DNA from: Haliotis cracherodii
Taxonomy: Eukaryota
Length of the DNA: 64,000 bases
Direction of reading: 5' to 3'
NCBI RefSeq assembly: GCF_022045235.1
Contig: NW_027266266.1
Coordinates: forward strand, 4,953,848 to 5,017,847
Shown here piece after piece: positions 52,662 to 53,740 of the stretch. The notes under the pieces were generated by a model. It searched no databases. It was given only the letters and a program-made list of their open reading frames with translations, and was not told the origin of the DNA. Positions within the stretch are counted from its first letter, which is position 1. The number at the start of each line of letters is the position of its first letter. A program made the position numbers and the translations under genes.

Positions 52662-53655
52662 ACACTGATAATGACATAGCTACTCTACCACATACACTGA
52701 TAATGACATGGCTACTCTACCACATACAATGATAATGACATGGCTACTCTACCAAATACACTGATAATGACATGGCTACTCTACCACATACACTGATAAT
52801 GACGTGGCTACTCTACCACATACACTGATAATGACGTGGCTACTCTACCACATACACTGATAATGACATGGCTACTCTACCACATACAATGATAATGACA
52901 TGGCTACTCTACCAAATACACTGATAATGACATGGCTACTCTACCACATACATTGATAATGACGTGGCTACTCTACCACATACACTGATAATGACGTGGC
53001 TACTCTACCACATACACTGATAATGACATGGCTACTCTACCAAATACACTGATAATGGCATGGCTACTCTACCACATACATTGATAATGACATAGCTACT
53101 CTACCACATACATTGATAATGACATGGCTACTCTACCACATACACTGATAATGACATAGCTACTCTACCAAATACATTGATAATGGCATGGCTACTCTAC
53201 CACATACATTGATAATGACATAGCTACTCTACCACATACATTGATAATGACATGGCTACTCTACCACATACACTGATAATGACATAGCTACTCTACCACA
53301 TACAATGATAATGACATGGCTACTCTACCAAATACAATGATAATGACATAGCTACTCTACCACATACACTGATAATGACATGGCTACTCTACCACATACA
53401 TTGATAATGACATGGCTACTCTACCACATACACTGATAATGACATGGCTACTCTACCACATACATTGATAATGACATGGCTACTCTACCACATACATTGA
53501 TAATGACATGGCTACTCTACCACATACACTGGTAATGACATGGCTACTCTATCACATACAGTGATAATGACATAGCTACTCTACCACATACACTGATAAT
53601 GACATAGCTACTCTACCACATACAATGATAATGACATAGCTACTCTTCCACATAC
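52662..53655. repeat. minisatellite, 32-bp unit x about 31 (gctactctaccacatacactgataatgacatg); the last unit is the first 17 nt of the ASL intron
   Basis: direct read; every unit carries ccacatac, the reverse complement of the donor gtatgtgg. Confidence 0.9.
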
Positions 53656-53740
53656 ATTTCCAAAAAGTCTTCCTGACTTTCCACGGATTAGTTCCAAACT
53701 GTCAGAGTTTTTCTTCTGGGGCATCAGGCTGCTCCCGGTG
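53656..53740 (-). CDS. ASL: ASL exon: (S)[28 protein letters not shown]
   Basis: matches human [29 protein letters not shown]; acceptor cgacag|, donor |gtatgtgg. Confidence 0.9.

What the first reader, a model, noticed from the sequence alone, without database searches (positions are those of the whole stretch)
52662..53740. A 32-bp minisatellite of about 31 units beginning at position +1 of another ASL intron
The intron after the exon at 53656-53740 begins gtatgtggaagagtagc.... That 17-nt string is the last, partial unit of a roughly 1-kb array of 32-bp repeats (gctactctaccacatacactgataatgacatg). Each unit contains the donor-like motif gtatgtgg on the coding strand. This is the third ASL intron with an array anchored at a splice junction.
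Basis: seen in the sequence. Interest (0 to 1): 0.6.

Follow-up and report, generated by a model that had tools for sequence, protein, structure and literature searches.

The report
Splice-donor-reiterating intronic minisatellite in abalone ASL
An intron of the abalone argininosuccinate lyase gene starts with 31 tandem copies of its own first 32 bases, each copy carrying a spare splice-donor signal; this kind of repeat is already known from lancelets ("mirages") and some human genes, so it is a new example and not a new phenomenon.

Summary
Window 52664-53655 (minus strand) holds 31 indel-free 32-bp units. They start exactly at G+1 of the intron that follows the 85-nt ASL exon 53740-53656. All 31 units begin with GT, and 25 begin with GTATGTGG.

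The window encodes Haliotis cracherodii ASL exactly. H. rufescens has the same array with the same two junctions, but 64 units. H. rubra and H. asinina have no array. They have one copy of the progenitor at the same place (GTATGTGGAAAAGTAGTTATG and GTATGTGGAAGAGTGGTTATG). So the array arose in situ, by tandem duplication of about -3 to +29 of the exon/intron junction. It is not a dispersed satellite.

This is the known class of boundary-spanning minisatellites. Examples are the amphioxus "mirages" and the human F7 IVS7, CBS, IFI6 and LMNB2 repeats. Use of any of the 30 pseudo-donors would give a stop within 16 codons, so the upstream-most donor must be the one used. That step is inferred, because no RNA data were available.

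The other three large arrays in this gene also derive from splice junctions. All are confined to the same two species (post hoc P about 1e-4 to 5e-4). This hints at a junction-biased process that remains unexplained.

Verdict: a new member of a known kind, the first I could find in a mollusc, of modest interest.

The parts
53656..53740 (-). 85-nt ASL coding exon (S285-N313 of the H. cracherodii protein, [29 protein letters not shown], carrying the fumarate-lyase signature)
   Evidence: tblastn. An exact GT-AG model reproduces P0001 residues 48-471 at 100%.
53648..53658 (-). Authentic 5' splice site AAT|GTATGTGG (cleavage between 53656 and 53655). It is also the start of repeat unit 1.
   Evidence: The same N|C junction is found in H. 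rufescens and H. asinina (exact models) and the same AAT|GTATGTGG junction sequence in H. rubra; the junction lies at the same position in scallop and, from the protein and locus sequence, in amphioxus.
52664..53655 (-). 31 complete 32-bp units (consensus GTATGTGGTAGAGTAGCCATGTCATTATCAGT) with no indels. Units 2-31 are 30 pseudo-donors. Unit 1 alone keeps the ancestral A at +9.
52662..52663 (-). GT, the first two bases of a 32nd unit. The distal junction reads ...ATCAGT|GT|CATTGTGCCTGCAG and is identical in H. rufescens.
51823..53655 (-). The whole intron (1833 nt). The array is 54% of it and ends about 840 nt upstream of the acceptor gttgcag|TGT.
51763..51822 (-). Next exon (CSGFMMSLKGIPSTYNKDLQ). 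Its own donor CAG|GTAATTTACA seeds the 11/22-bp array at 51502-51749.
52522..52609 (+). Head of a SINE-like dispersed repeat (at least 12 copies in the window), antisense to ASL and 52 nt beyond the distal end of the array. It is shared with H. rufescens and is not seen in the first 190 nt of the intron in H. rubra or H. asinina.
54222..55632 (-). Context: 61-bp x 23 array. Each unit is the last 29 nt of the upstream exon (which ends at 55604) plus the donor CAG|GTCAGT plus 26 nt of intron.
60927..62005 (-). Context: 74-bp x 14.5 array. Each unit carries the acceptor TTTCAG| plus the first 21 nt of the exon that starts at 60947.

Best explanation
This is a lineage-specific intronic minisatellite (VNTR). 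It arose in situ by tandem duplication of about 32 bp that straddles the exon/intron junction: the last 3 nt of the exon (AAT) plus the first 29 nt of the intron.

Shown: it formed after the lineage leading to H. cracherodii and H. rufescens had separated from the H. rubra and H. asinina lineages, and before those two species split. It has since changed length (31 versus 64 units). Block duplications inside both arrays and species-specific unit variants show this.

Inferred: the length changes came from unequal exchange or replication slippage.

Because the founder unit contained the 5' splice site, every unit carries a pseudo-donor. Inferred by analogy with human F7 IVS7: the spliceosome uses only the most upstream site, which adjoins the exon. 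Use of any of the 30 downstream sites would produce a stop within 16 codons and remove the last 159 residues, so such transcripts would be non-functional and probably degraded.

The array itself most likely has no function. It is a tolerated by-product of a genome very rich in minisatellites.
For: - Array and register.
- Exact gene model with the junction at 53656|53655.
- Organism: ASL is 99% identical to H. cracherodii over the concatenated exon query and 100% over residues 48-471 in the spliced model.
- Orthologous array in H. rufescens (L001 15488-17539), 64 copies, with the same proximal and distal junctions.
- No array in H. rubra (L002) or H. asinina (L003). There the intron starts with a single GTATGTGGAAAAGTAGTTATG or GTATGTGGAAGAGTGGTTATG, 19/21 identical to unit 1.
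- Unit 1 of the window keeps the ancestral A at +9, while units 2-31 have T. This edge effect is the same as reported for amphioxus mirages; PMC3087553.
- Repeated multi-unit blocks in the unit maps (CHFFFBIB twice in H. rufescens) and species-specific variants show concerted evolution.
- Every pseudo-donor choice gives a premature stop at codon 16 after the junction.
- No Rfam family in 46000-64000.
- No copy of the unit elsewhere in the window, in the loci fetched up to (L001-L003), or in the metagenome collection.
- Precedents with the same geometry are the F7 IVS7 37-bp VNTR (4 nt of exon + 33 nt of intron, only the first donor used, pseudo-sites functional but silent) and the CBS, IFI6, LMNB2 and PDGF repeats: PMC1557585. 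Amphioxus 'mirages': PMC3087553 and PMC3902484.
Against: - No RNA data were available. Use of the first donor rests on the annotated proteins and on conservation of the N|C junction across species.
- The exon-derived part of the unit is only 3 nt. The -2 position is the most variable in the unit (A9, G16, T5, C1 in the window), so 'spans the boundary' is met only minimally.
- The distal third of the unit (about ATTATCAGT) cannot be traced with confidence in the outgroup introns, which are unalignable beyond about +25.
- The rest of the abalone genome could not be searched for dispersed copies.
- Pure neutrality does not explain why all four large arrays of this gene sit on splice junctions.
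Confidence: 0.8

Rival explanations
1. A junction-directed mutational process created the array. On this view, founder duplications in this lineage, as in amphioxus, are preferentially seeded at exon/intron boundaries. Possible causes are breaks or template switches where conserved exon homology meets highly polymorphic intron sequence during recombinational repair, or transcription- and splicing-associated damage. The position at +1 would then be a mechanistic signature and not an accident. This extends the best explanation and does not contradict it.
For: - All four large arrays in the gene derive from junction sequence: the 74-bp array from an acceptor plus 21 nt of exon, the 61-bp array from 29 nt of exon plus a donor, the 32-bp array, and the 11/22-bp array from CAG|GTAATTTACA.
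- All four are shared by the window and H. rufescens and absent from H. rubra and H. asinina.
- If founders were placed uniformly in the H. asinina intron set, the joint probability is about 1e-4 gene-wide and 5e-4 using each array's own intron.
- Amphioxus ASL independently carries four boundary arrays, one at the acceptor of the orthologous intron.
- The three large units share TCAGTG (P about 0.015).
Against: - The statistic is post hoc, on one gene that was picked because it looked odd.
- The ancestral introns are short (153-1171 nt), so units of 60-74 bp straddle a junction fairly often by chance (own-intron P 0.2-0.7).
- ASL of scallop, limpet, periwinkle, H. rubra and H. asinina has no junction-overlapping minisatellite.
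- 19% of the window is tandem repeat, and the large arrays outside ASL lie in transposon-rich sequence where no multi-exon gene was identified.
- No mechanism could be tested here.
Confidence: 0.2
2. The array is functional. Thirty to sixty reiterated U1-binding pseudo-donors would act as a cis-regulatory element. They might enhance recognition of a weak AAT|GTATGT donor, suppress premature cleavage and polyadenylation in an enlarged intron, or provide regulated unproductive splicing of ASL.
For: - The authentic donor lacks G at -1, as do two other donors in the gene (GTC|gtgagt and TCG|gtgagt).
- All units keep GT, and 26 of 31 keep GTATGT.
- In human IFI6 and CBS, the first one or two pseudo-sites are actually used (PMC1557585).
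Against: - The array is absent from two congeners that have the same donor and the same protein.
- Copy number differs two-fold between sister species.
- Conservation of GT within units is what recent concerted evolution gives without any selection.
- Every pseudo-donor product is truncated.
- No expression data were available.
Confidence: 0.07
3. The array is a dispersed satellite or a tandem array carried by a transposable element. For example, it could belong to the neighbouring SINE-like element and have landed next to the donor by chance.
For: - A SINE-like repeat head lies 52 nt beyond the distal end, pointing towards the array, and its 3' part is not recognisable.
- The distal about 8-10 nt of the unit cannot be traced in the outgroups.
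- The rest of the genome could not be searched.
Against: - Unit positions 1-21 are orthologous to the single-copy intron start in two outgroup species.
- The array is in exact register with G+1, and unit 1 keeps the ancestral base at +9.
- There are no other copies in 64 kb, in the H. rufescens, H. rubra or H. asinina ASL loci, or in the metagenome contigs.
- The other SINE copies in the window carry no such array.
Confidence: 0.04
4. The array is an assembly artefact, that is, a mis-assembled or over-collapsed repeat.
For: Arrays of about 1 kb at 94% identity are difficult for short-read assemblers. PMC3087553 reports a mis-assembled mirage in the amphioxus draft genome.
Against: Two independent assemblies of two species show the same array with identical proximal and distal junctions and species-specific unit variants. 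Copy number may still be imprecise.
Confidence: 0.02

Closest known systems
Human F7 intron 7 37-bp VNTR (Borensztajn et al. 2006, PMC1557585)
   Same: The first monomer spans the exon/intron boundary (4 nt of exon + 33 nt of intron; here 3 + 29). The authentic donor is followed by pseudo-donors of identical sequence. The array sits at the very start of the intron, and copy number varies.
   Different: F7 has 5-9 repeats against 31 and 64 here. For F7, exclusive use of the upstream-most site and 5'-to-3' scanning were shown experimentally. Here that is only inferred.
Amphioxus 'mirages' (Adh3, globins BflGb6/9, troponin C, PGBD5; Canestro et al. 2002, cited in PMC3087553 and PMC3902484)
   Same: [quoted passage not shown] Units are 10-160 bp, and there can be several per gene. 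Both donor and acceptor sides are affected. Length is unstable, evolution is concerted with the edge units excluded, and the mRNA is apparently normal. I also found four such arrays in amphioxus ASL itself (L004).
   Different: The phylum differs (Mollusca, Vetigastropoda). Only 3 nt of exon are included in this particular array, whereas the 61- and 74-bp arrays of the same gene include 29 and 21 nt. Somatic instability was not testable.
Human CBS exon 13/intron 13 31-bp VNTR, the IFI6 (6-16) minisatellite, and the LMNB2 and PDGF intronic repeats (as summarised in PMC1557585)
   Same: These repeats reiterate the exon/intron junction and provide 10-26 pseudo-donors. The CBS unit size (31 bp) and copy number (15-20) are close to this case.
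   Different: In CBS and IFI6 the first two pseudo-sites are used in addition to the authentic site. Whether that happens here is unknown.
Intron gain by tandem duplication across an AGGT proto-splice site (Rogers model, discussed in PMC3087553)
   Same: Splice signals are duplicated in tandem by a local genomic duplication.
   Different: No new intron is created here. The intron position (N|C) is old and is shared with scallop and amphioxus.

Membership tests
Boundary-spanning minisatellite ('mirage' / F7-IVS7 type) | Head-to-tail tandem array of a minisatellite-sized unit (about 10-160 bp) | tested here: met
   32 bp x 31 units, 94% identity, no indels.
Boundary-spanning minisatellite ('mirage' / F7-IVS7 type) | The terminal unit contains the authentic exon/intron junction, so the splice signal is reiterated in every unit | tested here: met
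   Unit 1 starts at G+1. All 31 units start with GT. The last 3 nt of a unit are A-N-T and match the exon's AAT in 9 of the 31 sites in the window (the authentic site plus 8 pseudo-sites); in H. rufescens 39 of 63 units have A at that -2 position. The exon-derived part is minimal (3 nt, against 4 nt in F7).
Boundary-spanning minisatellite ('mirage' / F7-IVS7 type) | Origin in situ from the local junction sequence (a single-copy progenitor exists in relatives) | tested here: met
   H. rubra and H. asinina have one copy of GTATGTGGAA(A/G)AGT(A/G)GTTATG at the same junction and no array.
Boundary-spanning minisatellite ('mirage' / F7-IVS7 type) | Length instability or copy-number variation | tested here: met
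   31 units in the window against 64 in H. rufescens, with identical junctions and block duplications inside both arrays. Polymorphism within a species was not testable.
Boundary-spanning minisatellite ('mirage' / F7-IVS7 type) | Normal mRNA: only the authentic (outermost) site is used, or mainly that site | not testable with these tools
   No RNA data. Indirect support only: the sole model that reproduces the annotated protein uses the first GT, and all 30 alternatives give a stop within 16 codons.
Dispersed satellite or TE-borne tandem repeat | Copies of the unit at other, unrelated loci, or inside a recognisable mobile element | tested here: not met
   No copy outside the array in the 64-kb window, in the three abalone loci then fetched, or in the metagenome contigs. 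The neighbouring SINE-like copies elsewhere carry no array. The whole abalone genome could not be searched.
Structured non-coding RNA gene in an intron | Match to a curated RNA family | tested here: not met
   No Rfam hit at gathering threshold in 46000-64000.

The most novel reading that the evidence does not exclude
The ancestor of H. cracherodii and H. rufescens underwent a burst of minisatellite formation seeded specifically at exon/intron junctions, producing four in ASL alone. This would be the same phenomenon as amphioxus 'mirages', arising independently in a mollusc. It would imply a general, still unknown mutational mechanism that targets splice junctions in highly polymorphic marine invertebrate genomes. 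Candidates are template switching at the exon/intron homology boundary during repair between diverged haplotypes, or splicing-coupled DNA damage. The mechanism would be a standing source of cryptic splice sites and new introns.
Probability: 0.2. Interest if true: 0.6.

Novelty: new member of a known kind. Interest (0 to 1): 0.32.

Why it matters
Taken alone, the array is a tolerated repeat in an intron of a housekeeping gene. Its value is as a natural experiment.

- There are 30 (or 63) near-identical functional-looking donors behind the real one. Eight of them are identical to it over 11 nt. This makes a much more extreme version of the F7 IVS7 system used to argue for 5'-to-3' scanning in donor choice.
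- Together with its three sister arrays, it shows that 'mirage'-type junction repeats are not peculiar to cephalochordates.
- Related abalones with and without the arrays give a clean polarity: the progenitor sequence, the founder unit and the expansion can all be read. That polarity could be used to work out how such arrays start and why they favour splice junctions.

Tried and rejected
The real abalone proteins replaced it later.
- The original 'mirage' paper (Canestro 2002, PMC117041) is not held, so I cite it second-hand through PMC3087553 and PMC3902484.
- H. cracherodii P0001, Ptychodera P0071 and Lytechinus P0078 are not on record for locus retrieval.
- A full exact gene model for H. 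rubra failed, because the annotated protein is marked LOW QUALITY. The relevant junctions were read directly instead.
- A scallop array (L006 2152-2343) first looked donor-anchored from the tblastn ends. The exact model puts it 26 nt inside the intron, so I counted it as not anchored.
- I considered whether the SINE-like repeat next to the array supplied the unit. I rejected this because its homology stops 52 nt short of the array and the unit's first 21 nt are native intron.
- I rejected an origin from lariat or circular RNA by rolling-circle reverse transcription. The sister arrays straddle the cleavage site by 21-29 nt of exon, so the units must derive from unspliced, genomic-type sequence.
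- I rejected recursive splicing for this array, because there is no AG|GT at the unit joints.
- The Rfam scan and the metagenome scan found nothing.
- I did not sample further abalone genes for a genome-wide test. Protein searches rank hits by similarity to the query, and only window-encoded proteins (ASL and a single-ORF KCTD) would reliably return abalone loci.

Full report
**1. What is there**

TRF finds one array at 52662-53656: period 32, 31.1 copies, 94% matches, no indels. The gene lies on the minus strand. Read in that orientation and in register from the first intron base, there are exactly 31 complete 32-nt units (53655 down to 52664). The consensus is GTATGTGGTAGAGTAGCCATGTCATTATCAGT. 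After the last unit come GT and then unique sequence, CATTGTGCCTGCAG.... A 30-nt consensus allowing 3 mismatches hits 31 times in the window, all inside the array, against 0 hits in shuffles.

**2. The gene and the junction**

A tblastn probe located 14 ASL exons on the minus strand. The concatenated translation is 99% identical to ASL of Haliotis cracherodii and H. rufescens, 96% to H. rubra and 95% to H. asinina. A search over GT/AG boundaries gives a single model that reproduces residues 48-471 of the H. cracherodii protein exactly.

In that model the exon is 53740-53656 (85 nt, ...GRLFGN). Its donor is AAT|gtatgtgg and the next exon starts at 51822 (CSGFMM...). The intron is 1833 nt, and the array fills its first 994 nt.

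All 31 units start with GT. Of these, 25 read GTATGTGG, 5 read GTATTTGG and 1 reads GTATGTGA. Eight pseudo-sites match the real site over -3..+8.

**3. Origin, from comparison with other abalones**

I fetched the orthologous loci of H. rufescens (L001), H. rubra (L002) and H. asinina (L003).

- H. rufescens has the same array (15488-17539, 64 copies). It starts at the same donor and ends at the same distal junction...ATCAGTG|TCATTGTGCCTGCAGTGATT.
- H. rubra and H. asinina have no array. Their introns (1492 and 1171 nt) begin with a single GTATGTGGAAAAGTAGTTATG and GTATGTGGAAGAGTGGTTATG. Each is 19/21 identical to unit 1 of the window.

So the repeat unit is the native start of this intron, amplified in place. 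This happened in the common ancestor of H. cracherodii and H. rufescens.

Unit 1 of the window alone keeps the outgroup base A at +9; the other 30 units have T. The unit maps show duplicated multi-unit blocks, for example CHFFFBIB twice in H. rufescens. Each species also has private variants spread over several units. This is the ordinary signature of unequal exchange with concerted evolution, and PMC3087553 reports the same for amphioxus mirages.

Homology to the exon extends 3 nt. Units end in A-N-T, and this is AAT at 9 of the 31 donor positions in the window (the real donor and 8 pseudo-sites); in H. rufescens 39 of 63 units carry A at that -2 position. The collapsed sequence has A[A/G]TGT at both ends of the founder unit. 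This is a 4-5 nt microhomology, compatible with a slippage origin but too short to test.

**4. What it is not**

- It is not a dispersed satellite as far as I could look.
- It is not part of the SINE-like element 52 nt beyond its distal end.
- It is not a curated RNA family.
- It is not coding. Read through from the exon, the continuing frame hits TAG 16 codons into the array.
- It is not an assembly artefact, since two assemblies of two species agree on both junctions.

**5. How it most likely works**

Because the founder unit contained the 5' splice site, the real donor is followed by 30 pseudo-donors (63 in H. rufescens). I simulated use of each one. Every choice gives a premature stop at codon 16 after the junction and loses the last 159 residues. 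Only the first site can give ASL.

The closest tested precedent is the human F7 intron 7 VNTR, where the first unit is 4 nt of exon plus 33 nt of intron. There the pseudo-sites are functional but silent, because the most upstream site is chosen by a 5'-to-3' process (PMC1557585). I infer the same here, but no RNA data were available to check it.

I see no evidence for a function. The array is absent from congeners that have the same donor and protein, and its length differs two-fold between sister species.

**6. Comparison with what is known**

Minisatellites whose terminal unit spans an exon/intron boundary are documented in two settings.

- In humans: F7, CBS (31-bp unit, 15-20 copies), IFI6, LMNB2 and PDGF (PMC1557585).
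- In amphioxus, as a recurrent feature named 'mirages': Adh3, globins, troponin C and PGBD5 (PMC3087553, PMC3902484).

The present array meets every defining feature I could test. The membership table lists them. In the held literature the term is used only for amphioxus, and I found no report for a mollusc. The verdict is a new member of a known kind.

**7. The context is the more interesting part**

All four large arrays in this ASL gene derive from junction sequence.

| Array | Window coordinates | Content of each unit |
|---|---|---|
| 74-bp | 60927-62005 | acceptor TTTCAG\| plus the first 21 nt of the exon |
| 61-bp | 54222-55632 | last 29 nt of the exon plus CAG\|GTCAGT |
| 32-bp | 52662-53656 | this finding |
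| 11/22-bp | 51502-51749 | grows out of CAG\|GTAATTTACA; the outgroups have a single gtaatgtacagg (H. rubra) or gtaatggacagg (H. asinina) |

All four arrays are shared with H. rufescens at different copy numbers, and all are absent from H. rubra and H. asinina.

I took the array-free H. asinina introns as the ancestral state and placed founder units uniformly. The joint probability that all four straddle or abut a junction is about 1e-4 gene-wide, or 5e-4 using each array's own intron.

This is a post hoc test on one gene, in sequence where 19% of all bases are tandem repeat. Some ancestral introns are also so short that straddling is likely anyway.

For comparison, amphioxus ASL (L004) has four boundary arrays of its own, one at the acceptor of the orthologous intron. 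ASL of scallop, limpet and periwinkle has none.

The three large abalone units share the hexamer TCAGTG (P about 0.015), and the 61- and 32-bp units share ATCAGTGT (P about 0.03). I cannot say whether this means anything.

A junction-biased founding mechanism is therefore possible but unproven. PMC3087553 likewise states that the mechanism generating mirages is unclear.

**8. Verdict**

This is an in situ, lineage-specific minisatellite that reiterates the splice donor, of the known mirage / F7-IVS7 kind. It is very probably without function and is tolerated because the first donor is chosen. Interest is modest (0.32). The open question worth a genome-wide test is why such arrays cluster on splice junctions in this abalone lineage.

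Noticed in passing
window 54222-55632 (-): The 61-bp x 23 array repeats the last 29 nt of the preceding exon (SFVTLSDAY, exon end 55604) together with a strong donor, CAG|GTCAGT. This gives 22 exact pseudo-donors, each with exon context, behind the real one. H. rufescens has 20.5 copies. H. rubra and H. asinina have none.
   Followed up: partly
window 60927-62132 (-): The 74-bp x 14.5 array repeats the acceptor TTTCAG| plus the first 21 nt of the exon that starts at 60947. About 14 pseudo-acceptors therefore lie upstream of the real one. More diverged copies (83-bp period, 79% identity) sit at the far end. The ancestral intron in H. asinina is only 153 nt.
   Followed up: partly
window 51502-51762 (-): The 11/22-bp array (ACATTTACAGG) grows directly out of the donor CAG|GTAATTTACA of the exon ending at 51763. 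It has expanded to 1.26 kb in H. rufescens. H. rubra and H. asinina have a single gtaatgtacagg or gtaatggacagg.
   Followed up: partly
L004 (Branchiostoma floridae x japonicum ASL) 1930-2116, 3300-3504, 4290-4652, 6655-6976: Amphioxus ASL carries four boundary-spanning arrays of its own. One is a 31-bp x 10 array at the acceptor of the intron orthologous to the one studied here. Telomere-like (GGGTTA)n runs lie between triplicated copies of an acceptor plus exon start.
   Followed up: partly
window 52522-52609 (+), with copies near 4776, 7881, 15129, 22087, 35002, 47310, 56044, 57965 and elsewhere: A SINE-like dispersed repeat head (...GCAATATTCCAGCTATATGACGGCGGTCTGTAAATAATCGAG...) occurs at least 12 times in the window. 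One copy lies 52 nt beyond the distal end of the array.
   Followed up: partly
window 52323-52486, 52056-52219, 60457-60617, 62856-62967: A 164-bp dispersed repeat is present four times, all within ASL introns. Two copies in the same intron are 98.8% identical. It may be a MITE or a recent local duplication.
   Followed up: no
window 29006-29906 (+) and 29957-32443: A remnant of a Tc1/mariner-like transposase (HTH_32 and DDE_3 domains) is followed directly by a 2.5-kb array with 29-, 32-, 48- and 144-bp periods. This could be a transposon-associated satellite.
   Followed up: no
window 35777-36562 (-) and 39132-41846 (+): There is an intact 262-aa KCTD-type ORF (BTB_2 plus KCTD_C domains). Nearby is a decayed non-LTR retrotransposon with endonuclease, RVT_1 and RNase H-like pieces.
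   Followed up: no
whole window: Tandem repeats found by TRF cover about 12.0 kb, or 19% of the window, and 26% of the ASL region. This density is unusually high.
   Followed up: partly
units of the 74-, 61- and 32-bp arrays: The three units share the hexamer TCAGTG (P about 0.015 in shuffles). The 61- and 32-bp units share ATCAGTGT (P about 0.03). In the 32-bp array this octamer spans the joint between units. Both tests are post hoc and the meaning is unknown.
   Followed up: partly
L007 (Littorina saxatilis ASL) 7410-7484 and 15475-15543: (TG)n microsatellites begin within a few bases of two exon ends as estimated from tblastn. These may be a dinucleotide counterpart of donor-anchored repeats.
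   Followed up: no
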